A stretch of DNA of 53,702 nucleotides. Source: an uncultured Clostridia bacterium (lineage in GTDB: Bacteria > Bacillota > Clostridia > Christensenellales > CAG-138). The notes below the pieces were generated by a model. It searched no databases and was not told where the DNA came from. It saw only the letters and a list, made by a program, of their open reading frames with translations. The stretch is taken from the NCBI GenBank assembly GCA_905235205.1, contig CAJOKM010000003.1, forward strand, positions 1-53,702, in the 5' to 3' direction. Both the position numbers and the translations under genes were made by a program. How positions within the stretch are numbered: position 1 is the stretch's first letter; each line of letters starts with the position of its first letter. Positions 20,117 to 43,482 of the stretch are shown here, one piece after another.

Positions 20117-20306
20117 AGGCTGTCGTAAAAGGGGTCAGACCGTTTGCGGCGAGGATATGAAATCAGAATATCTATCGGAAGAAAAGGTGAAAGACACCTT
20201 TTCTTTTCATAATTTCGCCGCAAACTATTCGCGTTTTCACTCGGTCGCATACCTTAGTATAGCTCCGTCGTGAAAACCCGAATTCTGCCTCCCTTCTCAA
20301 CAGCCT
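20117..20306 (-). mobile_element. Non-autonomous MITE-like structured element, copy A
   Basis: Imperfect terminal inverted repeats aggctgtcgtaaaaggg / cccttctcaacagcct; flanking tctc duplication (20113-20116, 20307-20310); several internal hairpins; homologous to 43185-43478. Confidence 0.65.
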
Positions 20307-20309
20307 TCT

Positions 20310-20339
20310 CAGCTTGTCAAAAGGTTTTTTGACAAGCTG
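20310..20339. repeat. 30-bp palindrome, probably an ends-only IS remnant
   Basis: cagcttgtcaaaa-ggtt-ttttgacaagctg with perfect 13-bp arms, directly abutting the second direct repeat. Confidence 0.6.
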
Positions 20340-20381
20340 AAAGAACTGCCGCTACCGCGGCAGTTCTTTTTCGGTTTGCGG

Positions 20382-20816
20382 TTATGCTTTGAAGATCAGC
20401 TTCAAAAGATCCAGCTTGTCGCCGAAGAACGGCAGCGGGATCATCTTGCCGCGGAGCGCGTTGATGATGCCGATGATCGAGAACACGCAGATGGCGATGG
20501 AGATCGGCAGGATAGCGTATTTGACATACGGGATCAGCCCGACCGTAAAGCGCAGCAGGATCGTCGCGATCCAGAACACCAGCAGGTTGAAGCCCTGCCG
20601 CACGTGGAACTGCGCGAACGTCGAGTTCTTTCTTACGAACATCGGTACGAACAGCACCGGTCCGAGATACGCGAGCACGCCGAACCACTTGTTGCAGTCG
20701 GGCGCATCCGCGGTTTGCTGCGCGGTCGGCTGCGCGCCGGCGACCTTCGCGCCGCATGCCGAACAGAAGCCGGCGCCGTCCTTCAATTCCGCGCCGCATT
20801 TGGTACAATAAGACAT
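20382..20816 (-). CDS. Zinc-ribbon-containing membrane protein (DUF4870-like)
   Basis: CTKCG...FCSACG; LAYLG, FHVRQG and IIGIINA...PLP motifs; three TM segments; AGGAGG SD. Confidence 0.8.
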   Translation of the reverse strand: MSYCTKCGAELKDGAGFCSACGAKVAGAQPTAQQTADAPDCNKWFGVLAYLGPVLFVPMFVRKNSTFAQFHVRQGFNLLVFWIATILLRFTVGLIPYVKYAILPISIAICVFSIIGIINALRGKMIPLPFFGDKLDLLKLIFKA

Positions 20817-20829
20817 TCTAAACTCCTCC

Positions 20830-21489
20830 TTAGTCAGTGATATGTAAAACCTTCAGAAGCTCCGACGGATGCGAAAGCACGGTCTTAGCGCCGGCTTCGC
20901 GCAAAAACGCTTCGCCGCGGAATCCCCAGCCGCAGCCGACGAACGGAAGTCCCGCGTTTTTCGCAAACTGCACGTCGACGTCCATATCGCCGACGTAGAG
21001 CGATTCCTCCCGTGAAAACCCGAGGTCCTCGCGCACGACGTCCAGCATGACGGCGTCCGGCTTGGTCGGATACTGCTCGCACTGACCCTGCACGCGCGCA
21101 AACAGTCCGTTCGGAAAGAGCAGGCGGATCATCTTGTTCGCGTGCGGATCCGGCTTGTTGGTGACGACCGCAAGCGTGCAGCCGTGTTCTTTCAGAACGC
21201 GCAGCGTTTCCGGCATGCCGTCGTACGGCGCGGTGTGATCGCACAAATGCGCGGCATAGTCCGCCCAGAACCCGTCGCGCACCTTTGTCCAGTCGGCTTC
21301 ATGCCCTTTCGGCACGGCATGCTGACACATATACACGATGCTCTTTCCGACAATGCCGGACACGCCGTCGTCCGAAAACGTCGGAAATCCGCACCGTTTC
21401 AGCGCGCGGTTTAACGAAGCTGCGATGTCGCCGAGTGTATTGCAAAGCGTTCCGTCCAGATCGAACGCGATAAACCTGATTTGTTCCAT
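20830..21489 (-). CDS. HAD-family hydrolase (phosphoglycolate phosphatase-like)
   Basis: FDLDGTL, VVTNKP, KPD and YVGDMDVD motifs; start placed at MEQIRF. Confidence 0.9.
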   Translation of the reverse strand: MEQIRFIAFDLDGTLCNTLGDIAASLNRALKRCGFPTFSDDGVSGIVGKSIVYMCQHAVPKGHEADWTKVRDGFWADYAAHLCDHTAPYDGMPETLRVLKEHGCTLAVVTNKPDPHANKMIRLLFPNGLFARVQGQCEQYPTKPDAVMLDVVREDLGFSREESLYVGDMDVDVQFAKNAGLPFVGCGWGFRGEAFLREAGAKTVLSHPSELLKVLHITD

Positions 21490-21603
21490 TGTGTTACCTG
21501 CCCATTTCCTTACACGCATATTTTACATGGTTTATGCACGCTCGTCAATCCGTCGCAGGCTTTTCCGGCTTCACAAATCGGAAAAATGTGGTATACTGAA
21601 ACC

Positions 21604-22503
21604 ATGATCGAATATCAGAGGATTACGGAAGAAACCATCTTAGCGCTGAAGCCGTTCTTTTATACCTATGCGTGCGGCATCTGCGACAACACCGTTGGTG
21701 CCGTTTACCAGTGGCGCGACATCTATGTATCGTACTATGCGGTGATCGGCGGTATGCTCTGCATCCGCGCAGGCTACGGCGCGTACGGCGACTGCTATAC
21801 CGTTCCGCTCGGCAGCGGCGATTTCAACGCGGCGTGCGCGGCGAACGAGGCGGACGCAAAGGCGCGCGGCATTCCGCTGCGCTACTGCGTGGCGCCCGCC
21901 TGCGCGCTCCCGTGCCTTCAGGCACGGTACGGAGACCGGATGCGGACGGAGAGCATCCGCGATTGGGCGGACTATATCTACGACGCGGACGCGTTCCGGC
22001 ACTACGCGGGCAAGCAGTTCCATACGCAGAAAAACCACGTGAACCGCTTCTACCGCGATCATCCGAACGCGCAGACCGTGATCGTGACGGACGAAGCGAC
22101 CGGGCGCGCGTGCCTTGCGTTTTTAGACCGGTTCCGCGCGATGCATCCCGAGTTCTCGCCGCTGGAGAAGAACGAGTGGAACGGCGCAAAGGATCTTCTT
22201 CTGCACCGCGACGCGCTGGAACAGACGGCGGTCTGTCTCAAGGACGGAGAGGAGGTCCTCGCGCTTGCGATCGGCGAACGGAAGGACGACATGCTGTTTG
22301 TGCACGTGGAAAAGGCAATGCCGGGCGTGTCCGGCGCGTATCCGGCGATGGCGCAGGCGTTTGTGAACTGCTTTGACGGCGTGCGCTTCATAAACCGCGA
22401 GGATGACGGCGGCGATCCGGGACTCCGGTATTCCAAGCTGAACTACCGTCCCATCGAGCTCAAAGAGAAATACCTCGTCACGATCCGTGACGAAAACGCA
22501 TAA
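21604..22503 (+). CDS. DUF2156 / aminoacyl-transferase-like GNAT-fold protein
   Basis: DYIY, KNHVNRF, VHVEKA, GAYP and INREDDGGDPGLRYSKLNYRP motifs; ATG 6 nt after an extended -10. Confidence 0.8.
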   Translation: MIEYQRITEETILALKPFFYTYACGICDNTVGAVYQWRDIYVSYYAVIGGMLCIRAGYGAYGDCYTVPLGSGDFNAACAANEADAKARGIPLRYCVAPACALPCLQARYGDRMRTESIRDWADYIYDADAFRHYAGKQFHTQKNHVNRFYRDHPNAQTVIVTDEATGRACLAFLDRFRAMHPEFSPLEKNEWNGAKDLLLHRDALEQTAVCLKDGEEVLALAIGERKDDMLFVHVEKAMPGVSGAYPAMAQAFVNCFDGVRFINREDDGGDPGLRYSKLNYRPIELKEKYLVTIRDENA

Positions 22504-22529
22504 AACCTATGGATGAAGGGAGCAAACCA

Positions 22530-23450
22530 ATGAAAAAACCGATTCTTCTGATCATGGCGGCAGGCATGGGCAGCCGCTTCGGCGGGCCCAAGCAGATCGA
22601 ACCGATCGACGAACACGATCACGTCATTTTAGACTTCTCCGTGTTCGACGCGATCCGCGCCGGCTTTGAAAAGGTCGTCGTCATCATTAAAAAAGAGATG
22701 GAAGCAGACTTTGAGGAGCGTGTCGGCAGACGGATTCGTCCGCATGTGAAGCTCGAGTACGCGTTCCAGTCGCTCGACAAGCTTCCGAAAGGCTACGAGA
22801 TCCCAGAGGGACGCGTGAAGCCGTGGGGAACCGCGCACGCGATCCTCTGCGCCAAAGAGCACCTTGACGCGCCGTTTGCCGTGCTGAACGCGGATGATTT
22901 CTACGGCGCGGACGCGTTCCAAAAAATCTATGACTTCTTAAGCGCGCCGCACAGCGAAAGCGAGTACGCGATGGTCGGATACCGGCTGGGCAATACGCTG
23001 TCGGACTACGGTTCCGTCGCGCGCGGCGTGTGCGAGATCGGACCGGACGGCAGGCTCGTTACGCTGACCGAGCGGCTGAAGATCGAAAAGCGCGACGGCG
23101 CGGCCGCGTTCACCGAGGACGACGGCGAGACTTTTACGCCGCTTGCGCTGGATACGCTTGTTTCGATGAACCTGTTCGGGCTGCAGCAGACCGTGCTCGA
23201 CGCGTTTGAAAAGCGCTTCCCGCCGTTTTTGGACGAGAATCTGCCCAAGAACCCCTTAAAGTGCGAATACCTGCTGCCGCGCGTGCTCGACGCCATGATG
23301 CAGGAGGGCAAAATCAGCATCGAAGTGCTCGCAACCACCGCGCGCTGGCACGGCGTCACGAACCGTCCCGACCTGCCGCTTCTCAAGGAAGCGATCCGCA
23401 GCATGAAGGATCAGGGACTGTATCCGGACGAACTCTGGAAGGAAAACTGA
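22530..23450 (+). CDS. Sugar-phosphate nucleotidyltransferase family protein
   Basis: MAAGMGSRFGGPKQ, KPWGTAHA and NADDFYG motifs. Confidence 0.88.
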   Translation: MKKPILLIMAAGMGSRFGGPKQIEPIDEHDHVILDFSVFDAIRAGFEKVVVIIKKEMEADFEERVGRRIRPHVKLEYAFQSLDKLPKGYEIPEGRVKPWGTAHAILCAKEHLDAPFAVLNADDFYGADAFQKIYDFLSAPHSESEYAMVGYRLGNTLSDYGSVARGVCEIGPDGRLVTLTERLKIEKRDGAAAFTEDDGETFTPLALDTLVSMNLFGLQQTVLDAFEKRFPPFLDENLPKNPLKCEYLLPRVLDAMMQEGKISIEVLATTARWHGVTNRPDLPLLKEAIRSMKDQGLYPDELWKEN

Positions 23451-23468
23451 CCGTTTGAAAAACGGGGC

Positions 23469-23497
23469 TTGACAAAGAGAACGGAATCATATACTAT
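23469..23497 (+). promoter_or_regulatory. Sigma-A promoter of the cys leader and cysK-cysE
   Basis: TTGACA, 17 nt, TACTAT. Confidence 0.8.
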
Positions 23498-23524
23498 ATA
23501 TGAAAACACGGGAAGGAGAAACAG

Positions 23525-23599
23525 ATGGGTAAGGCGATCCAAAACCGCAAAGCATGTTGTTGCGCTTGTTTTGTCATGCCCGTTTGTGTTTCCGGATAG
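23525..23599 (+). CDS. Putative cysteine-rich leader peptide MGKAIQNRKACCCACFVMPVCVSG (24 aa)
   Basis: SD AAGGAG (23513-23518) 6 nt before the ATG; 5 Cys codons including TGT TGT TGC; lies between the promoter and a terminator upstream of cysK. Confidence 0.8.
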   Translation: MGKAIQNRKACCCACFVMPVCVSG

Positions 23600-23613
23600 G
23601 GGTTTTACGCTGC

Positions 23614-23649
23614 AACCGGAAGGCCGACGGGCTTTCCGGTTTTTTCTTT
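23614..23649 (+). terminator. Attenuator terminator in the cysK leader
   Basis: Stem aaccggaaggcc / ggctttccggtt (one G-U), loop gacg, tail ttttcttt; the 5' arm can alternatively pair with tttccgg (23589-23595). Confidence 0.82.
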
Positions 23650-23696
23650 GTCGCGGAAAACGGGCGCATCACATAATCTGAAAGAGAGGAACGAAC

Positions 23697-24626
23697 ATGA
23701 ACGTATACACATCTGCCGATCAGCTGATCGGAAAAACGCCGCTGCTGGAGCTGCAGCGGCTTGCGCGCGAGGAAGGAGCGGACGCACGGATCCTTGCAAA
23801 GCTGGAGTATTTCAATCCGGCGGGATCGGTCAAGGATCGCATCGCAAAGACGATGATCGACGACGCGGAGCAAAAGGGACTTTTGAAAGCGGGCTCGGTG
23901 CTGATCGAGCCGACGTCCGGCAACACCGGGATCGGGCTTGCGTCCGTCGCGGCGGCGCGCGGATACCGCGTGATCATCGTGATGCCGGAGACGATGAGCA
24001 TCGAGCGCAGGCGGCTGATGCAGGCGTACGGCGCGGAACTGGTGCTGACCGACGGCGCGTCGGGCATGAAGGGTGCGATCGCGCGCGCGGAGGAGCTGGC
24101 GCGGGAGATTCCGGACGCATTGATCCCGGAGCAGTTTAAAAACCCCGCCAATCCCGAAGCGCACCGTACCGGCACGGGACCGGAGATCTGGGCGGACACG
24201 GACGGGCAGGTGGATCTGTTCGTGGCGGGCGTCGGCACGGGCGGAACGATCACCGGCGTCGGCGCATACCTGAAAGCGCAGAACCCGAACGTGCGCGTCG
24301 TCGCGGTCGAGCCCGCCGGCTCGCCGGTTCTGAGCCAAGGCGTTGCCGGCGCGCATAAGATCCAGGGGATCGGCGCGGGTTTCGTGCCGGAGATCCTCGA
24401 TACGGCGGTGTACGACGAGGTGATCGCCGTGGAGAACGACGACGCGTTCAAAACGGCGCGAACGATCGGGCGCACGGAGGGGATCCTGGTCGGCATCTCG
24501 TCCGGCGCGGCGGCATGGGCGGCGATCAGGCTCGCGAAGCGACCGGAGAACCGCGGAAAAACCATCGTGGTTCTGCTCCCGGACAGCGGCGACCGCTATC
24601 TGTCCACGGCGTTGTTCGAGGCGTGA
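23697..24626 (+). CDS. cysK: Cysteine synthase A
   Basis: [12 protein letters not shown] lysine; [15 protein letters not shown] and HKIQGIG motifs. Confidence 0.97.
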
Positions 24627-24627
24627 G

Positions 24628-25503
24628 ATGAAACGGAAGGCAAAACAGGCGGCGCTGGATGCAGCGCAGGCATTACAAGCGGAAAGCGCTCAAAACACGC
24701 AGACGGACTTTCGCGGGTTCAGGCGCCGCGCGGAGCGCATGACGGACTGCGTGATCGACGCAATGTTTCCGCGGCACGCAAAAACTCCGGCTGCGCCGAA
24801 GCGGATGCTTCGGGAGGCGTCGAAGCATCTTGTGCGGTGTCTTTCCACCGTACTGAGCGACGCGGACAGGGCGGAAGCGATCGCAGGAACGTTTTTCGGC
24901 GCGCTGCCCGAGGTGTTCGGAATGCTCCGCGCCGATCTTGAAGCGGCGTACCGCGGCGATCCCGCGGCGCACAGCGTGGACGAGATCATTCTCTGCTATC
25001 CGGCGTTTTTTGCGATCTGCACCTACCGGCTGGCGCACGTGCTGTACCGGGCGGGCGTTCCGCTGCTGCCGCGCGTGATGACGGAATACGCGCACCAAAA
25101 AACCGGGATCGACATCCATCCCGGCGCGCAGATCGGCGAGGAGTTCTTTATCGATCACGGAACCGGCGTCGTCATCGGGGAAACGTGCACCATCGGAAGG
25201 AACGTCAAGATCTACCAGCATGTGACGCTCGGCGCAAAGAGCTTCAACGTCGACGGGAGCGGCGCGCTCGTCAAGGGGATCAAGCGGCATCCCGACATCG
25301 GCGATCGTGTGGTCATCTATTCCGGCGCGACGATCCTCGGCGGCGAGACACAGATCGGGAACGACTGCATCATCGGCGGCAGCGTGTGGCTGACGCATTC
25401 GGTGGAGGCGGGGAAGATGGTGCTTGCGCGCTCGACGGTCACCGACGCGCCGCTCACGCGTGACGTTATGCACGCGTCGGTTCTGGACAGCGCTCTGCTG
25501 TAA
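24628..25503 (+). CDS. cysE: Serine O-acetyltransferase (EpsC-type)
   Basis: GDPAA, TGIDIHPGA, FIDHGTGVVIGET and KRHP hexapeptide motifs; 1 nt after cysK. Confidence 0.92.
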   Translation: MKRKAKQAALDAAQALQAESAQNTQTDFRGFRRRAERMTDCVIDAMFPRHAKTPAAPKRMLREASKHLVRCLSTVLSDADRAEAIAGTFFGALPEVFGMLRADLEAAYRGDPAAHSVDEIILCYPAFFAICTYRLAHVLYRAGVPLLPRVMTEYAHQKTGIDIHPGAQIGEEFFIDHGTGVVIGETCTIGRNVKIYQHVTLGAKSFNVDGSGALVKGIKRHPDIGDRVVIYSGATILGGETQIGNDCIIGGSVWLTHSVEAGKMVLARSTVTDAPLTRDVMHASVLDSALL

Positions 25504-25546
25504 AAAAAGCGTATCGCCGCGGTTGCGATACGCTTTCATTTTGTTT
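25502..25546. terminator. Bidirectional terminator between cysE and the MATE gene
   Basis: aaagcgtatcgc / gcgatacgcttt 12-bp stem (25506-25536) with an A-run before and a T-rich tail after. Confidence 0.8.
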
Positions 25547-27044
25547 ATTCGTTGCTCGGCGCAGGCTCGTCCAGCGGCTTGATCTTTTTCCGATAGAGCC
25601 TTCGGAACAGCAGGGAAGCGACGATCAGCGTAAGGAACTCGGCGATCGGGAACGCCCACCAGATGCCGTCGACGTCCTTGGTGAGCCACGCAAGCAGCGC
25701 GGCGATGGGCAGCAGCACAATGAGCTGGCGCTGAAGCGAAATGATCGCGCCGTACAGACTCGTGTCGGTCGCGCCGAACGCGGTGGAGAACGAGACGCCC
25801 GCCGCGGCGAACACGAAGCCGAGCGAAATGATCCTGAGCGCGCGGTCGGCGACGTCGCGCAGCGCCTGCGTCACGTCAAAGAGGTGCATCAGCGGATCGG
25901 CGAAGAACTGGAACAGCAGCGTGCCGAAGATCATAAACACGCAGCAGAAGATCAGAAGCATTTTGAACGCGCGCAAGAAGCGCTTGCGGTTTCTGGAACC
26001 GAAGTTGTAGCCGAGCACGCTCATCGCCGCGTTGGTCAGTCCGAACACCGGCATAAAGATGATCGACTGCAGCTTGAAATAGGTGCCGAACGCGCCGACG
26101 TACAGGTTCGGGAAATCGCCGGCCGCGTCGATCGTTTTGAGATGATACTCGCCGAGCGTTTTCAGAATGGTGTTCATGCCGAACATCATGATCGTACCGA
26201 CCGCCTGCATCAGAATCGACGGAAGCCCCACGCGGTAGATCTCATAGACGGTTTTCCGGTTCAGTCTGCAGTCCGAAAGGCCGATATGGATCTCGTGCTT
26301 TGCCGTAAAGAGCAGAATGAACGCGAGGATCATCGAGGCGAACTGTCCCGCGACCGTAGCGATCGCGGCGCCCTTGACGCCCATCGCGGGGACGGGGCCG
26401 AGACCCAGCACGAACACGCGGTCTAAGAAGATATTGACGATCGCGCCGCAAAGCTGCATCAGCATGGCGAACACGGTCCTGCCCTGCGCGGTCATGATGC
26501 GTTCGATGCCGCATGCGAGAAACACGCCGACACACAGGCTTAAGCAGATGGTCATATAGTTCGTGCCCATCAGCTGCACGACGGGATCCGCGCTCTGCCA
26601 CTGCATGAACGCCTTTGACAGCGTCAGTCCGGCAACGGTGAACACCGCCGCGGAGAGTACGAGCACGATCAAACCGTTGCCCGCCGCGCGGTTCGCGTCC
26701 TCAAAGCGTTTCGCGCCGAGCCGCCGTGAAATCAGCGAGTTGATGCCGACCGACGTGCCGACCGCAACCGAGATCATCAGCATCTGCAGCGGATACACGA
26801 GCGACAGCGCGGAAAGCGCTTTGTCGCCGATATGTCCGACGATCTCCGCCTGATAGAGATCGCCGAGGATGCGGCTGAGCACTTCGGGCGCAAGGGAATC
26901 CATGCGCGACACGAATACGCTGTCGACAATGTTGTACAGCGCCTGCACGAGCATAGAGACGATGATGGGCCAGCCCATCGAAAGGAGCAGCCGCCCTTCC
27001 GGCGCCGTTCCCATTTTGTTTTGTCGAATTGTTGGTTGTTCCAT
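25545..27044 (-). CDS. MATE family efflux transporter
   Basis: PIIVSMLVQALYNIVDS, NIFLD..F and MGVKGAAIATV motifs; multiple TM segments. Confidence 0.93.
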   Translation of the reverse strand: MEQPTIRQNKMGTAPEGRLLLSMGWPIIVSMLVQALYNIVDSVFVSRMDSLAPEVLSRILGDLYQAEIVGHIGDKALSALSLVYPLQMLMISVAVGTSVGINSLISRRLGAKRFEDANRAAGNGLIVLVLSAAVFTVAGLTLSKAFMQWQSADPVVQLMGTNYMTICLSLCVGVFLACGIERIMTAQGRTVFAMLMQLCGAIVNIFLDRVFVLGLGPVPAMGVKGAAIATVAGQFASMILAFILLFTAKHEIHIGLSDCRLNRKTVYEIYRVGLPSILMQAVGTIMMFGMNTILKTLGEYHLKTIDAAGDFPNLYVGAFGTYFKLQSIIFMPVFGLTNAAMSVLGYNFGSRNRKRFLRAFKMLLIFCCVFMIFGTLLFQFFADPLMHLFDVTQALRDVADRALRIISLGFVFAAAGVSFSTAFGATDTSLYGAIISLQRQLIVLLPIAALLAWLTKDVDGIWWAFPIAEFLTLIVASLLFRRLYRKKIKPLDEPAPSNE

Positions 27045-27115
27045 AATGAAACTATTATAATGAGCCGTCCCTTAAAAAGCAAGCACTTTTTCGCGCAAAG
27101 ACAGCGGTTAGGGAC

Positions 27116-27886
27116 TCAGCGGAACAAAAGATCGTACTGTTCGCCGCTGCGGTAATTCAAGTAAAGCGTAAGACCGTCCGGAAGCTTGAGCGTGCCGGTG
27201 CAGCCGTTTGCGCCGAAGGTGATGCTTGCCTTCTCCGCAAGCGATTCCGCGTACCCGTGCGCGCGCAAAAACGGCAGGAACGCTGCGTTAGCGCCGTCCG
27301 GAGACAGGCAGTCGTAAAGCGCGCAGTTTTCCGAATAGACTTCGCCGGTGCGGCTGTCGAACTGCACGGACAGGCAGTACAGGTTTCCGCCGCCCTCGGA
27401 ATAATACGCCTGCGCGCACCACAGCGCGAGCTTCGCGCCGCTCTGCTCGTTGTAGAAATCGCGCAGGACGGCGGTGTAGCGGCTCTTGCGGAAAACGGTC
27501 CCGACCGATTCGCCGGTCGGCAGCACGCCGTTTTTCGCGTGGACTTCCAGCGTATCGTTCCACAGCGCGGACAGCGTTTCGGTGATCGCCGCGCTGTCCA
27601 GTTCGCCCGGCATGACGGCGCGTTCGTCGCCCTGGCGTTCGCATTGCAGGAACAGTCCCACGCGCGTTTCCAGCGACAGCGGCGCGCCGATGCTGTCGGC
27701 GCTGATGATGCTGACCGCTTCGTACTCGGTCTTATCGTACAGACCGGCTTCGCTGAGCCGGAAGATCCAGCGGTTCAGAAGAACAAGCAAAAACGCGATC
27801 AGCACGGTTCCCGCGATCAGCGTAATGTAAACGATGCGCGTGCGGGTGACGCGGTCGCGGTTTGCGAACAGACGAATCTTCTTCAT
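27116..27886 (-). CDS. Hypothetical membrane-anchored protein coupled to the two-component system
   Basis: N-terminal TM helix; ATGA overlap with the kinase stop codon; no family recognised. Confidence 0.65.
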   Translation of the reverse strand: MKKIRLFANRDRVTRTRIVYITLIAGTVLIAFLLVLLNRWIFRLSEAGLYDKTEYEAVSIISADSIGAPLSLETRVGLFLQCERQGDERAVMPGELDSAAITETLSALWNDTLEVHAKNGVLPTGESVGTVFRKSRYTAVLRDFYNEQSGAKLALWCAQAYYSEGGGNLYCLSVQFDSRTGEVYSENCALYDCLSPDGANAAFLPFLRAHGYAESLAEKASITFGANGCTGTLKLPDGLTLYLNYRSGEQYDLLFR

Positions 27887-29972: not shown

Positions 29973-30047
29973 AATACCCTTCCTCCGGTTCCTTTATTTG
30001 GAAGAAATGATAGCATACGGATGCGGACGAAATGTAACAGGATTGTT

Positions 30048-34334: not shown

Positions 34335-34344
34335 CGACGATGTC

Positions 34345-34368
34345 AAAAGACCCACGCGGGTCTTTTTT
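34345..34368. terminator. Bidirectional terminator
   Basis: aaaagaccc-acgc-gggtctttt between convergent genes. Confidence 0.7.
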
Positions 34369-34384
34369 CATTTCGGAAGAGGCC

Positions 34385-35644: not shown

Positions 35645-35693
35645 GCTCTTTTCCCTCCACTTTGATTGTATCAAACGCGTTAAGAAAAGAAAA

Positions 35694-35720
35694 TACGGCA
35701 TATTTGGGAAATATGCCGTA
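35694..35720. promoter_or_regulatory. Perfect 12-bp inverted repeat: terminator and/or operator upstream of the MFS promoter
   Basis: tacggcatattt-ggg-aaatatgccgta; extended -10 TGaTACAAT on the minus strand at 35673-35665. Confidence 0.55.
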
Positions 35721-35742
35721 TAAAAAACGCTGTAAAAGATGT

Positions 35743-36870
35743 TTAAGAGTGAATCTCAGGAAAATCCGAAAGAAGGTCGAGCGCCTTCTTATATTGGCGC
35801 GTTGCGCGGTACCATTCGAGCACCCAGGGCAGATGAAATACGGCATAGCCGGCTGGCAGTTCCTTGCGACAGCGTTCGAAGCAATGCAGCAGCAGTTCGC
35901 CGTATGCAGCATGCGCAAGATAATCCGGATGCAGAAGACGATATCGCACCGTATCGCAAAACAGACGCACGGTCTCGGTCGGCGGATAATCGGAGGCTGC
36001 GGCGTCGGCGCGATCGAGTGCGGCGAGCGCTTCTTCCGTCCGGCCCGTTTTTTCGCAGCAGATCGCGAGCTTGTGCAGCGCCAGCATGGAAGGGGAATTG
36101 AGCGACGAAAAATAAGCGTATGCGCGTTCGCAGTCGCCGGATTCGATATAGGACGAGGCGATGTTATAATCGATCGTGGAAACCACGTCCGTTTCCGAGA
36201 CAGCAACGGCAAGCCGCCGTGCCGCGTCGTATTCCGCAAGCATTTGAGGAAGCTCGCCGAGATCGCTCATACAGTTTCCGATTCGCGCCTTGCATTCCAT
36301 CATCAGACGCGCCGCGCCGCATTCTGCGGCAAGCTCATAGCCCGTGCGCAGATGTGCCAGCGCGTTTTGATACCGTCCGCTTTCATATGCATTCTTTCCG
36401 GCGCAGAAATGAAAATACGCGTTCGGGTGCAGGCGGATCGCTTCTTCATAGTTGTCTTCCAATGCGCGGTACAGGGCAAGCGCACGAGTATCCATGCAGG
36501 GGACGAGTGCGGCGTCGGGAAGAGGCGAGAGTCCCGCCACACAGGCGAGCAACAGAACGTGCAGTCCGGATGCTGTTGTCTCGAAGCGACGATAATCGGT
36601 TTTGAACAGCTCGAAAAAGGCGGCAAAGTCGCCGGAAAACAGCGACTCGTACGCGTCGCGAACGAATTGCGCGGCGTCGGCGTCGACAGATGCGTTTCGC
36701 GCGATGCCGAGACGCAATAACAGCGCGTCAAGAACCTCGGCGGACGGCTCGGCCTTGCCCTGCTCGATCTTTGAAAGATAGGAGACCGTGCAGATCCCCT
36801 TTGAGAGTCCTGCCTGGCTCCAGTTTTTTTCCAGCCGCTTTCGGCGGATCAACGCTCCGAGATACTGCAT
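35743..36870 (-). CDS. XRE-HTH plus TPR transcriptional regulator (RRNPP-like architecture)
   Basis: WSQAGLSKGICTVSYLSKIEQGKAEPS N-terminus as in NprR/PlcR-type HTHs; helical TPR-like C-terminus. Confidence 0.82.
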   Translation of the reverse strand: MQYLGALIRRKRLEKNWSQAGLSKGICTVSYLSKIEQGKAEPSAEVLDALLLRLGIARNASVDADAAQFVRDAYESLFSGDFAAFFELFKTDYRRFETTASGLHVLLLACVAGLSPLPDAALVPCMDTRALALYRALEDNYEEAIRLHPNAYFHFCAGKNAYESGRYQNALAHLRTGYELAAECGAARLMMECKARIGNCMSDLGELPQMLAEYDAARRLAVAVSETDVVSTIDYNIASSYIESGDCERAYAYFSSLNSPSMLALHKLAICCEKTGRTEEALAALDRADAAASDYPPTETVRLFCDTVRYRLLHPDYLAHAAYGELLLHCFERCRKELPAGYAVFHLPWVLEWYRATRQYKKALDLLSDFPEIHS

Positions 36871-36897
36871 GGGTCCTCCGATACCAACCCGTTTCGG

Positions 36898-37773
36898 TTA
36901 TTGCTTCGGTTGTGCGCTCACGACGCTGACGTGCGGATACGGGATATCGATGCCGTTTGCGAGCAGCGCCTCGCGCACGCGCGTCTGGATATCGTCGATC
37001 AGCCGCTCCGTCGGGGTTGTCCGCTCGTAGTACACTGTCGTCGTCATGACGAGCGCGCTGTCGTCCAGCGCGATGAAAAACACGTCGCCGTAGGCGGGCA
37101 TTCCGTCCGCATCGGTCTTGCCGGGGACCGCATACGCGCTGTCTTTGATCGCCTGACGGATGACATCCTTTGCTCTCGCCACGTCGCTGTCGTAGCCGAT
37201 CGGAAAACTGAACTTGACGGAGCGGGCGATCTGATGAAAGCTGTAATTGGTCAGCGACTGGCTGTTTACCTTGCTGTTGGGCACGATGTAACGCAGCGTG
37301 TCGATCCCGCGCAGCACGACGTGGCGGTTGGTGATGTCCTCCACGATGCCGATCGTGCCGTCCGAGAGCTCGATGCGGTCGCCGATCTCGAACGGCTTCT
37401 GTACGCTGATCATCAGACCTGCGAGGATGTCCTTGATGACGTCCTGCGCCGCGAACGCGATGACCGCCGAAACGACCGCCGTGCCGCCGAGCATGGTCTT
37501 CCAGACCGACGCGTTGCTGTCGAGCGCGGAGATCGCAAGAATCAGAACGCCGACAACGATGATCACTTTGTTCATCCGCTCGAAGAATACCAGATGAATG
37601 CCGCGCTGTTTTCGGTTCAACGCCTGAAAGACCTTGCGGTTTGCAAACACCAGCAGCCAGATGATGAGCCCCGCGGCGACGATCGTGACGCCGACCCAGA
37701 AAAGTTTCTGCCAAAACTCGTCGTTAATCCAGGAGAACCTGTCCAAGAACCCCTCTTTACAATAGATTTGCAT
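36898..37773 (-). CDS. MscS family mechanosensitive channel
   Basis: AFAAQDVIKDILAG, KPFEIGDRI and IVPNS motifs; the start may instead be TTG 37746. Confidence 0.9.
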   Translation of the reverse strand: MQIYCKEGFLDRFSWINDEFWQKLFWVGVTIVAAGLIIWLLVFANRKVFQALNRKQRGIHLVFFERMNKVIIVVGVLILAISALDSNASVWKTMLGGTAVVSAVIAFAAQDVIKDILAGLMISVQKPFEIGDRIELSDGTIGIVEDITNRHVVLRGIDTLRYIVPNSKVNSQSLTNYSFHQIARSVKFSFPIGYDSDVARAKDVIRQAIKDSAYAVPGKTDADGMPAYGDVFFIALDDSALVMTTTVYYERTTPTERLIDDIQTRVREALLANGIDIPYPHVSVVSAQPKQ

Positions 37774-37823
37774 ACTCCCCTGCGGGACCTGCCCGCATCC
37801 CTTTCACAAAATGGTGTTTCGGA

Positions 37824-38651
37824 TCAACCTTCAGGGCGTCGGGAACCTTTCAGTTCCAGCGCTCTTCGATAAGTTTCTTTCTTGGAAAGACCCGATCGTT
37901 CTGCGGCGATCGCCGCGGCGTCCTTCAGCGATTCGGTTTTCAGAAGCTCGAAAAGAAGCTCGTCAAGATCGGGCGCGGGATTTTCCGCCTTCCGTCCGGG
38001 AACGAACGCGATCACGCATTCGCCCTTCGGCTCCTCCGAAAACCGCTCGATCAGTTCCGACAGCGTGCCGCGCACGACGGTCTCGAACTTTTTGGTAAGC
38101 TCGCGGAGCACCGCCGCCGGCCCGTCGCCGAAGCGGTCCAAGAGGTCTTTCAGCGTCGCCTGCACGCGGTGCGGACTTTCGTAGAGGATCACCTGATGGC
38201 GGATCGGCGCGATCGCGTCGAGCGCTTCCCGGCGCGGCTTTGCTTCGCGCGGAAGAAACCCGACGAACGTAAACGGCTGCGCGGGCAGTCCCGACAGCAC
38301 GGCGGACATCAGAACGGCGCTTGCGCCGGGGATCACGGTGCAGGGCAGACCTTGCTTTGCGCATGCGTCCACGAGCATTGCGCCGGGATCGGACACGCCG
38401 GGCATGCCCGCGTCGGACACGTAAGCGACGGTCTTTCCCTCTTTGAGCGCGGCGATCACCTCTTCGGTACGCTCGCGCTCGTTGTGCGTGTGCAGCGAGC
38501 GCGTCGGTTTTTTGATCCCGAAATGCTGAAGCAGGATACCCGTGTGCCGGGTATCCTCACAGTAGATCACGTCGGCGGCTTCAAGCGTTTCGACCGCGCG
38601 CGGCGACAGATCGCCGAGATTGCCGATGGGCGTTGCGACAAGGTACAGCAT
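37824..38651 (-). CDS. rsmI: 16S rRNA (cytidine1402-2'-O)-methyltransferase
   Basis: MLYLVATPIGNLGD, CEDTR, SDAGMPGVSDPG, YESPHR and RELTK motifs; TGATG overlap with the upstream gene. Confidence 0.95.
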   Translation of the reverse strand: MLYLVATPIGNLGDLSPRAVETLEAADVIYCEDTRHTGILLQHFGIKKPTRSLHTHNERERTEEVIAALKEGKTVAYVSDAGMPGVSDPGAMLVDACAKQGLPCTVIPGASAVLMSAVLSGLPAQPFTFVGFLPREAKPRREALDAIAPIRHQVILYESPHRVQATLKDLLDRFGDGPAAVLRELTKKFETVVRGTLSELIERFSEEPKGECVIAFVPGRKAENPAPDLDELLFELLKTESLKDAAAIAAERSGLSKKETYRRALELKGSRRPEG

Positions 38652-39568
38652 CAGCGGAGCCTCGTGCGCAGGTTTTCCCCGCGCAGCAGTACGATCGCGG
38701 TCAGCGCGCCGTCGATCATGCGGCTTGCCACGCGCTCGCCGTAGCGTTCGAACAGGCCTTCGCGGTCGAGATTGCTGATGAGCACGGTCGGACGCTGCGC
38801 CGCGCCGCGCTCGTTGAGAATGCGGAAAAGCGATTCGATCGTGACGTTGGGGATCATCGGCTCGGTGCCGAGATCGTCCAGCACCAGAAGCGGCGCCGAA
38901 AGGTACGGCAGGATTGTTTCGCTGTGTGAGTCGAGCCCGTCCAGGATCGACTGGATGCACTGGTATGCGGTTGCCTTGACGGCGTACACGCCGTTTTCGA
39001 TCGCGGCGTAGGCGATCGCGTTGCCGAAGAACGACTTGCCGAGTCCCGACTGTCCGAGGATCAGAAGATTCGGCTTCTCGGGCGCGGGCAGCGCCGCCGC
39101 GTAGCGTTCGGAGAAGCGGCGCATGGCAAGCGCCTGTTTTTTCTGTTCGTCGGTCGGATACAGCGATTCGTCGAAGGTTTTGAACGTTTCGCGCTCGTTG
39201 ATGCGCGAACCGAAAAGCTGCAGCTCCTGCTGCTTTTTCAGCGCGCACGAACAAAGCCGTCCGCCGTCCTCGCCGAGCATGCCGGTGTCGTGACACTTCG
39301 GGCAGGTATAGATCGGTTCGAGGTAGTCGGCGGGAAAATCAAGGGAGATCAAAAGCGTCTGCCGCTCCGCGCTGATCGCGGCGATGCGGGATTTGGCGGC
39401 GGCGACGCTCAATTTCCCCGCGCCGTACTGCTGCATGACAAGCCCGCGCTCGTCGGAAAGGGAGCGGAATCGCGGACTCTTTTGATCGCACAGCGCGATG
39501 CGTTTCTCCAAAAGCGCGCGGTTTTTATCGCGCAGGTCGCTGTAATAGCGTTTCAGTTCGTTCGTCAT
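38651..39568 (-). CDS. DnaC/DnaI-like AAA+ helicase loader ATPase
   Basis: CPKCHDTG...CSC zinc site; GQSGLGKS; LLVLDDLGTE; ISNL; RVASR. Confidence 0.88.
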   Translation of the reverse strand: MTNELKRYYSDLRDKNRALLEKRIALCDQKSPRFRSLSDERGLVMQQYGAGKLSVAAAKSRIAAISAERQTLLISLDFPADYLEPIYTCPKCHDTGMLGEDGGRLCSCALKKQQELQLFGSRINERETFKTFDESLYPTDEQKKQALAMRRFSERYAAALPAPEKPNLLILGQSGLGKSFFGNAIAYAAIENGVYAVKATAYQCIQSILDGLDSHSETILPYLSAPLLVLDDLGTEPMIPNVTIESLFRILNERGAAQRPTVLISNLDREGLFERYGERVASRMIDGALTAIVLLRGENLRTRLR

Positions 39569-40740
39569 AGGTCCTCGTTCAGGTCAACGACCAGTCGGTT
39601 GAAATCGTCCTCGGAGATCGGCGTCTGTTCATAGACAAGCGCTTTGTTCCGTTTCTGCCTGCGTGCCGGCGAAGACTCCTTTTTGCGCAGATGCTTTTCG
39701 GCGTCCTCTGCGGTACCGACGCCGTTTTGCGCCCAGTCGGACAGGATCTTTTTGAGCAGTCCCAGCGGCCGCTCGGCGCCGGCGCATTCGTCCGCGGCAA
39801 GCAGGATCGCTTCGCGCGAAATGCCCTTTTCGTCGCGGAACATGGCAAGCTGGCGCACGTTTGACAGCGAGGGGATCTCGACCTTGCCGAGCCGCGCAAA
39901 GACCATGCGCGCAAACTCGCGATCCAATGCGTCCTTCTGCTCGGTGCGCTCGATCTCCGTGACGCTTGTGAGGTTCTGCTCCTTCATCGTTTGCAGCCGG
40001 TCGTTCAGAATCGCAAACGACGGCGTAGAAACGTCGGTCATGCGCGCGCACACCGCAAGAATCGTTTCCGCGTCGAAGCCCCATTCGTTGATCCATGTGT
40101 CGTACAGCGCCATTTCGTCGACGGTCGGCGGCCGGCGTTTGTTCCAGCGGCGCAGCACTTCGGTCGCGCCGTGCTTTTGCATGCGGTAGTCCGCGACGTA
40201 CGCTTCCGCCTGCGCCTGCGTTTTGATGCCGTCCTCGCTCCACGATTCCGCGACGGAACGGATGTAGTTGCACGAAACGCGCCTGCCCTTCTGCTCCATG
40301 CAGTAACCGACCAGCGCAAGCACCGCGCCCTCTTCGAGCCCGTACAGCTCGATGCAGTCGTACATCGCTTTCATCTCGCGAAGGTTCAGCGTACGCGGCG
40401 ACAGCAGCGCGTTTAAGGAATCGACGAACGCGCGGTACTTCACCGGCGTCGCCGTGGTCACGGCGGGCTGCTCGGTCAGAAGATACTCGACCGAAAACGG
40501 CTCGTCGGACAGGATGCGCACAAGACCCTACACGAACGCGCAGCGCACCTGCGATTCGGGGATGCCGAGCGCGTCCCCGATGGCGACGTCCGAAAGCGAT
40601 CCGTGGTAGCACTGCATGAGTCCGAACAGATATACCTTTACAAACGTGCCGTCCGCATCGGGCATGAAGTTCAGAAAAAACAGATTGTCGACCGGCGTCA
40701 GTTCACGCCGCGCCGCATCGGGCGAAAAACGGATATTCAT
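39565..40740 (-). pseudogene. DnaD/DnaB-domain replication protein interrupted by an in-frame TAG at 40530-40528 (real lesion or assembly error)
   Basis: TPVDNLFFLNFMPDADGTFVKVYL N-terminus continues in the same frame after AFV* as GLVRI..., followed by DnaD-like repeats (YIRSVAESWSEDGIKT; ILSDWAQNGV). Confidence 0.75.
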
Positions 40741-40847
40741 ACGCGTATTATAGCACGGAAAACCCCCGGATTGCAACGGGACGCGCGAATTTCGGTACGG
40801 GTAAAAATATCTGGTATTTTTGGGAACAAGCCACTATAATATAAACC

Positions 40848-41972
40848 ATGAAAACGCTGAGAATCAACCGAACAAGACTGATTATCGCATCGGGCGTCCT
40901 GCTGCTTCTGCTGGTCCTGCTGTTTGTCGTCGTACGCGCCGCGGTCCGCACGGGCTGCCGGGGCGGCGAGGAGGCGGGACCGACGCAGGAACCGATCATA
41001 ACGCCCGCGCCGACGCTCTTGGATCTGTACGCGCACTTCGACTGGACGGAGACGACGGAGATCTCGGTCTACGATCATCGGGCGGACAAGCTGATCACGA
41101 TGAACCTCGAGGAGTATATCACGGGCGTCGTGTCGGCGGAGATGCCGGCGCGGTACGAGCTTGAGGCGCTCAAAGCGCAGGCGGTCGCGTCGCGCTCCTA
41201 CACGCTGCACAGCATGGCGCACGGCGGATGCCGCTCGCACGAGGGCGCGGACGTGTGTACCAACAGCGCGTGCTGTCAGGCGTTCTCCACGCATGCGCGG
41301 ATGCAGGAGCGCTGGGGAAACGATTATGTAAAGAACTACAACCGCGTGGCGACGGCGGTCATGGATACGGCGGGCGAGATTCTGACGTATAAAGGGAAGC
41401 TGTGCGACACGATGTATCACGCGGCGTCCGGCGGGCATACCGAGGATTCCGAAAACGTCTACGCGAACGCGATCCCGTACCTGCGCGGCGTCGAGAGTCC
41501 GTATGAGGATCCGGACACGCAGGCGGACGTTGCGATCGGCACGTCGGAGCTGGTCGCGCTGATCGCGGCGAAATACCCGGACAGCGGCGTCACCGAGGAG
41601 ACCGTGAAGGACGGGATCGAGATTCGTTCGACCTATGAGAGCGGCCGCGTGGAAAAACTGCGGCTCGGCAAATCGGAGATCACCGGCAAGCAGGCGCGCT
41701 CGCTGTTCGGTCTAAAGAGCGCGATGTTTACGATCACCTGGTCGGAGGACGGGATCGTGTTCCATACCAAGGGCTACGGGCACGGCGTCGGGCTTTCGCA
41801 GAACGGCGCAAACGGTATGGCGAAGCACGGCTCGACCTATGACGAGATTTTGCATCACTACTATACGGACGTGGTCCTCACCGTGTACGGCGCGGACGGC
41901 GTGCCGACGATTTCCGACGACGCGGACCTCGATCAATCGGACGACGGATCGCCGTTCGTTCCCGAGGACTGA
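40848..41972 (+). CDS. spoIID: Stage II sporulation protein D (lytic transglycosylase)
   Basis: EEYITGVVSAEMPA, EALKAQAVASRSY, YLRGVESP and GYGHGVGLSQ.GA motifs; N-terminal TM helix. Confidence 0.92.
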   Translation: MKTLRINRTRLIIASGVLLLLLVLLFVVVRAAVRTGCRGGEEAGPTQEPIITPAPTLLDLYAHFDWTETTEISVYDHRADKLITMNLEEYITGVVSAEMPARYELEALKAQAVASRSYTLHSMAHGGCRSHEGADVCTNSACCQAFSTHARMQERWGNDYVKNYNRVATAVMDTAGEILTYKGKLCDTMYHAASGGHTEDSENVYANAIPYLRGVESPYEDPDTQADVAIGTSELVALIAAKYPDSGVTEETVKDGIEIRSTYESGRVEKLRLGKSEITGKQARSLFGLKSAMFTITWSEDGIVFHTKGYGHGVGLSQNGANGMAKHGSTYDEILHHYYTDVVLTVYGADGVPTISDDADLDQSDDGSPFVPED

Positions 41973-41973
41973 C

Positions 41974-42645
41974 ATGGAACGCTTCGAATGGCTGATCGAA
42001 CCGCATACCGGTATTTTCCAGGATCCGGCGCTCGGGTGTTTTTCGGAGGACGCGATCGCGCTTGCGCACTTTTTCTCGGCGCATAAGGGGGATACGGTGC
42101 TCGATCTCGGCACGGGAAACGGCATTCTGTGCCTGTACGCCGAGGCGCTGTACGGCGGCTCGTACACGGGGATCGACATAAACGAAGCGCAGATCGCGCT
42201 GGCGAAACGGAGCGCCGAACGGAACGGACAGCCGATCCGCTTTCTTTCGATGCGCGTCGAGGACGCGCCGAATGCGCTCGGACACGGGACGTTTTCACGC
42301 GTTGTGATGAATCCGCCGTATTTTACGTCCGGTGACGCGGGCAGGTTTTCCGAAGCGCGCCACGCGGACGAAGCACAGCTTCTGCGCTGGTGCCGCGCGG
42401 CGTTTCTGCTGCTGAAAAACGGCGGACGGCTGACGCTGTGCTATCCCGCCGAGCAGCTTTCCGCCCTGTTTCGCGCGCTCGATCAAAGCCGGTTCGCGCC
42501 CAAACGAATGCAGCTGCTTACGCAGGGAGCGCGGGCGCGGCTTGCGCTGGTCGAAGCGAAAAAGGACGGCGCCGACGGCGTGACGATCACCGTTTCGCAG
42601 GGCAAGGCAAAAATGCCGGATCCGCCGTCGATACAGACGGTTTGA
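41974..42645 (+). CDS. SAM-dependent methyltransferase, tRNA1(Val) A37-N6 (TrmN6/YabB)-like
   Basis: VLDLGTGNG, NPPY, ARH, LKNGG and PKR motifs; GAGG SD before ATG 41974. Confidence 0.8.
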   Translation: MERFEWLIEPHTGIFQDPALGCFSEDAIALAHFFSAHKGDTVLDLGTGNGILCLYAEALYGGSYTGIDINEAQIALAKRSAERNGQPIRFLSMRVEDAPNALGHGTFSRVVMNPPYFTSGDAGRFSEARHADEAQLLRWCRAAFLLLKNGGRLTLCYPAEQLSALFRALDQSRFAPKRMQLLTQGARARLALVEAKKDGADGVTITVSQGKAKMPDPPSIQTV

Positions 42646-42651
42646 ACCATG

Positions 42652-42674
42652 CCGCTCGAAAAGAGCGGTTTTTT
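42652..42674 (+). terminator. Terminator after the methyltransferase gene
   Basis: ccgctc-gaaaa-gagcgg followed by T6. Confidence 0.7.
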
Positions 42675-42782
42675 GATTCATAATTCGTTCACGGAATTCC
42701 CGCAAACGCTCACAATTTATGAATTGCAATTCGGCGCGTCCCGGCGCAAACTGTCGAACGGGGGCAGGGGAGGAGAAAAAAC

Positions 42783-43181
42783 ATGAACGAACGGAAAACG
42801 GACGCGCCGCGCGCATGGCGCAGTACGGGGATCGGACGCACGCGCGATACGGGCCGCTGTGTAAGCGAACTGCTGATCGAGCACGGGATCGCGCCGCACC
42901 AGAAAGGGTATGCGGCGCTGCGCGACGGCGTACGGGTGCTGGCGGAACTGAACCGCTGCTGCCGGGTGCGGACCAACGAGGACCTGTATCCGCTGCTCGG
43001 CGCAACGGGAACGCAGGTCGAACACGCTGTGCGCGACGCGATCAAAACCGCGTGGGAACGCAGGGCTGCCGCCGCGCAGACGGATCTGTTCTTCGGCACA
43101 TGTCAGCCGACCGGCGCGGCGTTCCTGTATACGCTTGCGGAACGCGTGCGCGACCGCATGGCGGCGGAAAAAGAAGCATGA
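42783..43181 (+). CDS. Stand-alone Spo0A C-terminal (DNA-binding) domain-like protein
   Basis: GIAPHQKGY..LRD, LYP, VEHAVRDAI..AW and PT...F resemble Spo0A_C; no receiver domain; AGGAG SD. Confidence 0.72.
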   Translation: MNERKTDAPRAWRSTGIGRTRDTGRCVSELLIEHGIAPHQKGYAALRDGVRVLAELNRCCRVRTNEDLYPLLGATGTQVEHAVRDAIKTAWERRAAAAQTDLFFGTCQPTGAAFLYTLAERVRDRMAAEKEA

Positions 43182-43184
43182 TAC

Positions 43185-43478
43185 AGATTGTTGAGAATGG
43201 TATCAGAAGCCGCGTTTTCGCCCCGAGGCTATACGAAGGTATGCGAAGGGGTGAAAACGTCGGCTAATTTGCGGCGAAACCAAATGAAAAGTAAGGGCGT
43301 TCGAGCCCTTACTTCATACGGTTTTTTTGCACTCGCAAAAGGTTGGTAGCGACGGAGAGCCGTCGTGAGCGCGTTTACAAGCGAGCAGGCGAGCCGAGCG
43401 TGACCTTTTGCGGAAAGGAGCCGAAGCGGAGAGGGTGAGCGGAGATGCTTTGTGAAAGATTGTTGACTTTTATAACAC
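43185..43478 (+). mobile_element. MITE-like or structured non-coding element, copy B (longer variant); right boundary approximate
   Basis: First ~130 nt are collinear with the reverse complement of copy A; extra multibranch domain gcaaaagg...ccttttgc; intergenic between convergent genes. Confidence 0.6.
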
Positions 43479-43482
43479 AAAA

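What the first reader, a model, noticed from the sequence alone, without database searches (positions are those of the whole stretch)
20117..43478. Two distant copies of an unannotated structured element with compensatory base changes
Seen: the reverse complement of 20117-20306 aligns collinearly with 43185-~43315. Shared blocks are tgttgagaa, cagaa, gttttc, gctatac(t/g)aaggtatgcga, gtgaaaacg, tttgcggcgaaa and atgaaaag. Many differences fall in stems and preserve pairing: ttcg..cgaa versus gccg..cggc at the base of the first stem, and aagaaaaggtg/caccttttctt versus aagtaagggc/gcccttactt in the later hairpin. The apical gctatac-NAAG-gtatgc is nearly invariant. Both copies lie between convergent genes next to terminator hairpins. 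Inference: conserved internal structure despite divergence goes beyond what a MITE needs (ends only), suggesting a mobile structured RNA or ssDNA motif with a protein-recognised apical hairpin. It may be an undescribed family.
Basis: partly seen in the sequence, partly recalled or inferred. Interest (0 to 1): 0.72.

Follow-up and report, generated by a model that had tools for sequence, protein, structure and literature searches.

The report
Terminator-targeting mini-transposon with internal hairpins
The two hairpin-rich copies are two of about sixty copies of a small gene-less jumping element in a gut Clostridia genome that lands on transcription-stop hairpins and duplicates them, is likely moved by an IS1182-type transposase, and likely takes over the stop-signal job with its own internal hairpin; this is a new family of a known kind of mobile DNA, not a new RNA.

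Summary
The similarity and the covariation are real, but this is not a two-copy motif. The genome holds 60 hits (0 in a reversed control), and 17 of 18 genus genomes carry it. Boundaries are wider than reported: A = 20116-20339, flanked by an exact 28-bp duplication of a whole terminator hairpin; B = 43184-43550, with a second repeat nested inside. Ends match the inverted repeats of a Clostridia IS1182 subgroup whose full-length elements also duplicate whole hairpins (5 of 7 testable). Empty sites confirm mobility. The mobilising transposase was not found in the genus. Covariation holds (21 of 49 pairs), but rare variants show no G·T over A·C excess (17 vs 16) and 13 of 21 private double changes are transversion-type, which fits templated hairpin repair at least as well as RNA-level selection. 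The 'NAAG' loop is variable (11 of 58). Older copies have lost the host terminator and abut stop codons (27 of 32), while keeping an oriented terminator-like hairpin. No Rfam match. Verdict: IS1182-type MITE, new family of a known kind; this scan reported the same kind on other DNA.

The parts
20116..20339 (-). Copy A, full-length element (224 bp): outer 30-nt hairpin + 3-nt spacer + 190-nt core
   Evidence: boundaries also from loose contig ends
20088..20115 (.). Target duplication copy 1: whole 28-bp terminator-like hairpin downstream of the pullulanase gene
20340..20367 (.). Target duplication copy 2, identical 28 bp
20310..20339 (-). Outer hairpin M: two head-to-head IS1182-like ends; its outer arm is the element's 5' end. 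All 13 strict copies in the genome are attached to this element
20116..20129 (+). 3' terminal inverted repeat of A (IS1182-like; 60 of 3.5 million genome positions score as high)
20245..20265 (-). Apical hairpin of A (conserved stem, variable 4-nt loop, flanking purine-rich internal loop)
20179..20205 (.). Internal terminator-like hairpin of A (A-tract, GC stem, T-tract); not called by the consensus terminator scan
43184..43550 (+). Copy B, 367 bp: core without M and without target duplication, carrying a nested second repeat
43184..43197 (+). 5' terminal inverted repeat of B (IS1182-like; 20 of 3.5 million positions score as high)
43537..43550 (-). 3' terminal inverted repeat of B; overlaps the last codons and supplies the TAA stop of the DAGK/YegS gene
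43228..43244 (+). Apical hairpin of B
43288..43315 (-). Internal terminator-like hairpin of B, called on the minus strand (the direction of the DAGK gene)
43334..43517 (+). Nested second repeat family (30 hits in the genome, 9 nested in this element, 10 abutting tRNA/tmRNA 3' ends)
17393..20074 (+). Flanking gene: pullulanase-like (PUD, CBM_48, alpha-amylase)
20382..20816 (-). Flanking gene: zinc-ribbon domain protein
42783..43181 (+). Flanking gene: Spo0A C-terminal domain protein
43537..44397 (-). Flanking gene: DAGK/YegS lipid kinase family

Best explanation
It is a gene-less miniature transposon (MITE) with IS1182-type inverted-repeat ends that inserts at terminator hairpins and duplicates the whole hairpin, likely mobilised in trans by an IS1182-family DDE transposase, and whose internal stems are likely kept paired partly by templated hairpin repair and partly by mild selection for a compact transcript end that can stand in as terminator. 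Steps: (1, shown) ends match IS1182 ends; (2, shown) young copies are flanked by a direct copy of the whole target hairpin and empty sites hold one hairpin; (3, inferred) a DDE transposase joins the ends at the feet of an extruded hairpin/cruciform, as in pathway b of the IS1272 model; (4, shown as a pattern, inferred as a process) with age the outer hairpin M and both host hairpin copies are lost, the 3' end coming to abut or supply the neighbour's stop codon; (5, inferred) the internal A-tract/GC-stem/T-tract hairpin, stronger in the direction of that neighbour, makes the host terminator dispensable; (6, inferred) template switching between the arms produces many of the 'compensatory' changes.
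For: 60 hits, 0 in control. Duplication of 10 nt or more in 11 of 14 M-bearing copies and 0 of 41 M-less copies, Fisher p 3e-9; same pattern in 11 loci of relatives read by eye. IS1182 transposase in L250 passes NF033551 (407.7 bits, cut-off 270); 31 ends of its relatives give consensus CAGACTGTCGAAAA and the four outer ends of A and B rank in the top 19-80 of 3.5 million genome positions. Of 7 full-length IS with both flanks, 5 carry exact 22-30-bp hairpin duplications. An IS1182 3' end in L246 reads like M; L524, L528, L533, L535 have an inverted copy right behind the left end, as M does. Sister MITEs with the same ends but other cores: 36 of 61 with a right end found have duplications. Empty sites: site B holds one terminator in G031 and G017; L009 duplicated versus single hairpin in G000:C35; L546 versus G000:C36 shows loss of the 3' hairpin up to the stop codon. 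M-bearing copies are closer to their nearest neighbour (0.84-0.94 vs 0.75-0.90, p 9e-6). 23 of 51 copies lie between convergent genes vs 157 of 1518 background pairs. 27 of 32 M-less copies with an inward 3' gene end within -13..+7 nt of its stop; internal hairpin T-tract stronger on that strand in 63 of 72. Rare variants: 17 G·T, 16 A·C, 41 mismatches, 21 double Watson-Crick changes (13 of the 21 transversion-type, hand count); copy-specific end complementarity 239 vs null mean 191, max 211; L549 has a multi-base left end rewritten to match its new right flank. Literature: IS1182 members target terminators (PMC4923244, passages); whole-stem-loop duplication modelled (PMC5678879, abstract and first part of Discussion); template switching creates compensatory changes (10.1101/2021.04.15.439925, abstract only).
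Against: No matching transposase in the genome or genus: DUF772 0 of 1; the L250 protein finds only 27-29% hits in 3 of 28 genus genomes; the IS1182 fragments at three G000 contig ends belong to an element with different ends. No full-length IS with these exact subterminal sequences was found in viral, genome or metagenome scans. The end profile came from a regex written after seeing the ends, so one search is partly circular. One strand folds better in 42 of 45 copies and G·T cells exceed A·C cells overall (77 vs 53, p 0.04), so strand-specific selection is not excluded. 45 of 55 bounded copies keep a full 183-195-nt core while their flanks are trimmed, which pure neutral decay explains poorly. 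The consensus scan calls the internal terminator in B but not in A. M-less copies could also arise by IS1272-type stem-loop replacement rather than later deletion.
Confidence: 0.8

Rival explanations
1. The element is an IS1182-type MITE, but its internal fold is under real selection as a single-stranded structure: either a domesticated 3'-end RNA module (terminator/stabiliser) or a fold, including the apical purine-loop hairpin, needed in a single-stranded step of transposition.
For: Covariation: 21 of 49 pairs, 0 of 500 shuffles; 6 of 60 pairs at E<0.05 in a home-made tree-aware test. One strand folds better in 42 of 45 (RNA) and 43 of 45 (DNA parameters). Cores stay full length while host spacers shrink (median 7 nt, n 19, vs 57.5, n 134). 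A look-alike apex sits in an otherwise unrelated sister family in another genome (L172, L239).
Against: Private single changes are strand-symmetric (17 vs 16) and private doubles are mostly transversion-type. Loop variable; other repeats are inserted into the apex or stem in L072, L081, L085. Apex pattern: single chance matches in 3 of 400 class genomes, 2 control matches, 0 in viral contigs. Most sister MITEs with the same ends have quite different cores. No convincing orthologous retention between species.
Confidence: 0.3
2. A REP/REPIN-like element moved as single-stranded DNA by an HUH (Y1/RAYT) transposase that recognises the apical hairpin.
For: Imperfect palindromes, strand-asymmetric folding, intergenic location; Y1/RAYT genes exist in 15 of 28 genus genomes.
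Against: None of the Y1/RAYT genes is bracketed by this element; they have their own REP types, and the three loci with an element copy have it apart from the gene; the G000 IS200 has unrelated ends. IS200/IS605-type insertion makes no target duplication (established knowledge), whereas 21-28-bp duplications are seen.
Confidence: 0.05
3. An independent non-coding RNA gene family that has been duplicated.
For: Stable fold and covariation.
Against: Patchy species-specific sites, 0 to dozens of copies per genome, terminal repeats and target duplications, no promoter-like site pointing into the copies, no Rfam match.
Confidence: 0.04

Closest known systems
IS1182 family insertion sequences (NCBIfam NF033551; IS1272/TnSha1, PMC4923244 and PMC5678879) and their non-autonomous derivatives
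   Same: Inverted-repeat ends of the CAGnCTGTnGAAAA type; insertion at terminator-like hairpins without primary-sequence preference; the Clostridia subgroup examined here duplicates the whole hairpin as this element does.
   Different: No transposase gene; IS1272 deletes the target stem-loop and makes no duplication; the core here is unrelated to any full-length IS found; extra outer hairpin made of two ends.
bcr1 repeat of the Bacillus cereus group (as reviewed in PMC3184786, passages read)
   Same: About 155-190-nt non-autonomous mobile repeat, patchy distribution, cruciform-like fold with two stem-loops kept by compensatory changes.
   Different: bcr1 has 5-bp direct repeats and is shown to be transcribed; here the duplication is a whole hairpin and transcription is untested; no sequence comparison was run.
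SPRITE of Streptococcus pneumoniae (PMC3049150, passages read)
   Same: Small repeat enriched near 3' ends of convergent genes, proposed to be co-opted as terminator.
   Different: SPRITE has only 4-nt ends, no established duplication and no IS match; it is AT-rich and loosely folded.
REP/REPIN-RAYT and IS200/IS605 (HUH) systems
   Same: Imperfect palindromes, intergenic, strand-asymmetric folding.
   Different: No target duplication in those systems (recalled); genus RAYTs have other REPs.

Membership tests
MITE (non-autonomous IS derivative) | Short, non-coding, multi-copy | tested here: met
   190-224 bp, 60 hits in one genome, intergenic by a self-trained gene caller
MITE (non-autonomous IS derivative) | Terminal inverted repeats | tested here: met
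   End helices; copy-specific complementarity
MITE (non-autonomous IS derivative) | Target site duplication and empty sites | tested here: met
   11 of 14 M-bearing copies, 0 of 41 M-less; empty sites
IS1182-family derivative | Ends like those of IS1182-family elements | tested here: met
   (profile from 31 IS ends; partly circular selection of ends)
IS1182-family derivative | Hairpin targeting with whole-hairpin duplication shared with full-length members | tested here: met
   5 of 7 full-length IS with both flanks; elements
IS1182-family derivative | Cognate transposase present in the host lineage | tested here: inconclusive
   Not found; assemblies are incomplete MAGs (G000 78%); an IS1182 with other ends is present in fragments
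IS1182-family derivative | Mobilisation by an IS1182 transposase | not testable with these tools
   Needs a transposition assay
IS1182-family derivative | Listed in ISfinder as a named MITE | not testable with these tools
   ISfinder is not available; no blastn match in plasmid or phage collections
REP/RAYT or IS200/IS605 (HUH) | Element flanks a Y1 transposase gene | tested here: not met
REP/RAYT or IS200/IS605 (HUH) | No target duplication | tested here: not met
   21-28-bp duplications
Rfam structured RNA family | Score at or above a gathering threshold | tested here: not met
   0 in the window; best 23.8 bits vs 114, on the terminator; none near threshold
Functional structured RNA | Significant covariation | tested here: met
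   R-scape itself was not available
Functional structured RNA | Strand-specific tolerance of G·U over A·C in copy-level variation | tested here: inconclusive
   17 vs 16 rare types; 77 vs 53 cells, p 0.04; 30 vs 24 types, p 0.5
Functional structured RNA | Discrete transcript | not testable with these tools
   No RNA holder listed

The most novel reading that the evidence does not exclude
A mobile terminator: IS1182-type MITEs that land on terminators, then replace them, being kept full length by selection because their internal oriented hairpin now ends the neighbour's transcript (and sometimes supplies its stop codon), with a conserved purine-loop apical module, shared by unrelated sister families, that is read by the transposase in a single-stranded intermediate.
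Probability: 0.15. Interest if true: 0.62.

Novelty: new member of a known kind. Interest (0 to 1): 0.3.

Why it matters
It gives a large natural series for the little-studied hairpin-targeting chemistry of IS1182 elements: young copies with exact whole-hairpin duplications, empty sites and decayed copies. It is also a caution for RNA-motif hunting: a mobile quasi-palindrome passes covariation tests, and the pattern of rare changes here points to templated repair as a source of such covariation. If the terminator take-over is real, about 3% of gene ends in this genome would use a transposon-derived stop signal. None of this makes it a new kind of system.

Tried and rejected
Rfam at gathering and E-value thresholds: nothing. 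blastn distant against plasmids and phages: no match. HUH/RAYT partner: rejected. IS1182-family loci of the genus (7 loci) share no end sequence with the element. Apex motif as a widespread module: chance-level in 400 class genomes and 0 in viral contigs. Orthologous retention: none of 20 pullulanase and 4 DAGK orthologue loci carries the element at the gene end; L091 and G000:C31 are filled behind the same gene but differ in element sequence, hairpin and 5' neighbour, read as independent insertions. Expression: no RNA holder listed, no evidence either way. No covariance model was built. Rows dropped: 4 of 60 hits had no 3' end and one (C18) a false end, leaving 55; only the 45 of length 183-195 plus 27 copies from relatives were aligned; L515 was dropped from the end profile as a false site. 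Two review articles on insertion sequences were not held, so the statement that some IS1182 members target palindromes is taken second-hand from PMC4923244 and PMC5678879. Seven paper searches showed no description of this family or of Clostridia IS1182 MITEs; subscription papers, ISfinder and supplements were not seen and may hold one.
Full report
Observation. The two stretches are homologous (75.9% over 112 nt, E 7e-15) and fold well. The window comes from a 1.77-Mb, 58% GC, 78% complete assembly of a spore-forming Firmicute (Spo0A_C, SpoIID). Iterated nhmmer finds 60 hits and none in the reversed genome. A 3' end was located for 56; one was false, leaving 55: 45 simple cores of 183-195 nt, 8 longer copies with a nested insert, 2 others. 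Pairwise identity among the 45 is 57-94%, median 74%. By blastn the element is in 17 of 18 genomes of the genus and 0 of 12 genomes of other families. Rfam has nothing.

Anatomy. The core is a long closing stem formed by the two ends, then a three-way arrangement of an arm ending in the apical hairpin and an arm holding an A-tract/GC-stem/T-tract hairpin. Full-length copies add a 30-nt hairpin (M) at the 5' side; all 13 strict M hairpins in the genome are attached to the element. Copy A is such a copy, 20116-20339, with an exact 28-bp duplication of a terminator-like hairpin on both sides; contigs from 4 of 4 runs break at the same two points. Copy B is 43184-43550; it lacks M and any duplication, its right end supplies the stop codon of the DAGK gene, and it carries a second repeat at 43334-43517. 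The apical stem is exact in 58 of 72 copies, but its loop takes 14 forms, NAAG in 11.

Target duplication and mobility. A duplication of 10 nt or more is seen in 11 of 14 M-bearing copies and 0 of 41 M-less ones; complete copies in relatives show the same whole-hairpin duplication. Empty sites: at site B, G031 and G017 have the same two convergent genes with one terminator and no element. L009 has a core flanked by two hairpin copies where G000:C35 has one; L546 keeps the hairpin on the 5' side and abuts the stop codon on the 3' side where G000:C36 has hairpin plus spacer; L549, L554 and L561 are also empty in G000. M-bearing copies are more alike to their nearest neighbours than M-less ones, so they look younger.

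Which transposase. Y1/RAYT genes of the genus have other REPs. Pattern scans for the M end recovered many sister elements with the same two ends but other cores in Oscillospiraceae and other Clostridia: of 131 matches, 61 had a right end within 520 nt and 36 of these a duplication. A scan for the right end led to L250, an IS1182 transposase (NF033551, 407.7 bits). Its relatives occur in 35 of 399 class genomes; their ends have the consensus CAGACTGTCGAAAA and 5 of 7 full-length elements with both flanks duplicate a whole 22-30-bp hairpin. The four outer ends of A and B score in the top 19-80 of 3.5 million genome positions under that profile (partly circular, since the ends were picked by a pattern written after seeing them). 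An IS1182 3' end in L246 reads like M, and four IS loci have an inverted copy right behind the left end. Against: this subgroup was not found in 28 genus genomes, and the IS1182 fragments in G000 have other ends; these are incomplete assemblies. Literature: IS1272 of this family targets terminators and deletes the stem-loop (PMC4923244, passages); joining at the other foot is modelled to duplicate the whole stem-loop (PMC5678879, abstract and first part of the Discussion); mechanisms in the family are varied and little known (PMC12056078, passages).

Does the inner fold go beyond a MITE? Covariation is real: 21 of 49 pairs change on both sides, 0 of 500 shuffles reach it (27 copies), and 6 of 60 pairs pass E<0.05 in a home-made tree-aware test (45 copies). 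One strand folds better in 42 of 45. But among rare variants at 50 Watson-Crick pairs in 72 copies there are 17 G·T, 16 A·C and 41 mismatch types, beside 21 double Watson-Crick changes, 13 of them transversion-type with no wobble path (hand count). The outermost bases pair in a copy-specific way (239 vs shuffled mean 191, max 211), and in L549 several bases of the left end match a new right flank. That is what template switching between arms would give (10.1101/2021.04.15.439925, abstract). Overall G·T cells still exceed A·C cells (77 vs 53, p 0.04), so some strand-specific selection is not excluded. Compensatory changes in a mobile repeat are described for bcr1 (PMC3184786, passages), and stable stem-loops are typical of prokaryotic MITEs (PMC10969869, passages). 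The apex pattern is at chance level outside the genus, apart from a look-alike in one sister family (L172, L239); other repeats have inserted into the apex arm in three loci.

Likely role after insertion. With a self-trained gene caller, 23 of 51 copies lie between convergent genes versus 157 of 1518 background pairs. The 3' neighbour points in for 41 of 54; among 32 such M-less copies, 27 end within -13..+7 nt of its stop codon, whereas 7 of 9 M-bearing copies are 34-47 nt away. Host spacer left at M-less convergent sites has median 7 nt (n 19) versus 57.5 nt (n 134) without an element. The internal hairpin has the longer T-tract on the strand read by that neighbour in 63 of 72 copies; the consensus scan calls it in B but not in A. 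I infer that it stands in for the lost terminator, as proposed for SPRITE (PMC3049150, passages). ISs abutting genes by 1-3 bp are reported as a general pattern (10.1101/2025.07.22.666184, passages), so the abutment alone is not unique. No RNA data were listed.

Verdict. An IS1182-type, terminator-duplicating MITE: a new family of a known kind. I had stated this reading before the first look-up; eight notes of this scan on other genomes describe the same kind and one note on this genome describes the nested tRNA-linked repeat. Interest 0.3. The open, more novel reading (selected terminator take-over and a functional apex) gets probability 0.15.

Noticed in passing
window 43334-43517; G000 C37, C27, C51, C4 (four sites), C88, C11, C12: A second structured repeat family (30 hits): 10 hits abut the 3' end of a tRNA or tmRNA gene to within a few bases (10 of 44 such genes), 9 are nested inside the MITE.
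   Followed up: partly
L122-L243 (genome contigs), L099, L108, L116: A large set of sister MITEs in Oscillospiraceae and other Clostridia, and in some viral contigs, share the same two ends and whole-hairpin duplications but have many unrelated structured cores.
   Followed up: partly
L172:2501-2700 and L239:1-318: A sister family from an uncultured Eubacteriales genome has the same layout (outer hairpin, inner end, long arm) and a look-alike apical hairpin with purine-rich internal loops, with otherwise dissimilar sequence.
   Followed up: partly
L072, L081, L085, L553: Other small repeats are inserted into the apical loop or arm of the element in relatives.
   Followed up: no
L565 (G017:C9): Three near-identical cores, two head to tail, interleaved with another repeat.
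   Followed up: no
L554 (G031:C63) vs G000:C75: A copy sits in the 5' leader of a gene, just downstream of a promoter-like sequence, not at a gene end.
   Followed up: no
L070:1903-2140: A second, different MITE with the same left end and a duplicated hairpin lies 400 bp from a copy of this element.
   Followed up: no
G000:C79:11035-11535; G000 C14, C43, C90 contig ends: An intact IS200 TnpA with unrelated ends, and fragments of an IS1182-family element matching those in L017/L018.
   Followed up: partly
L024, L025, L028, L031, L033, L037, L039: RAYT-type transposases of the genus with at least two REP types of their own.
   Followed up: partly
G000:C38:9164 and L076, L095: The element's left end fused to a different internal sequence, with no matching right end nearby.
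   Followed up: no
window 20075-20382, runs X2 and X5: Related strains carry about 2.2 kb of other sequence between the pullulanase and zinc-ribbon genes instead of copy A.
   Followed up: no
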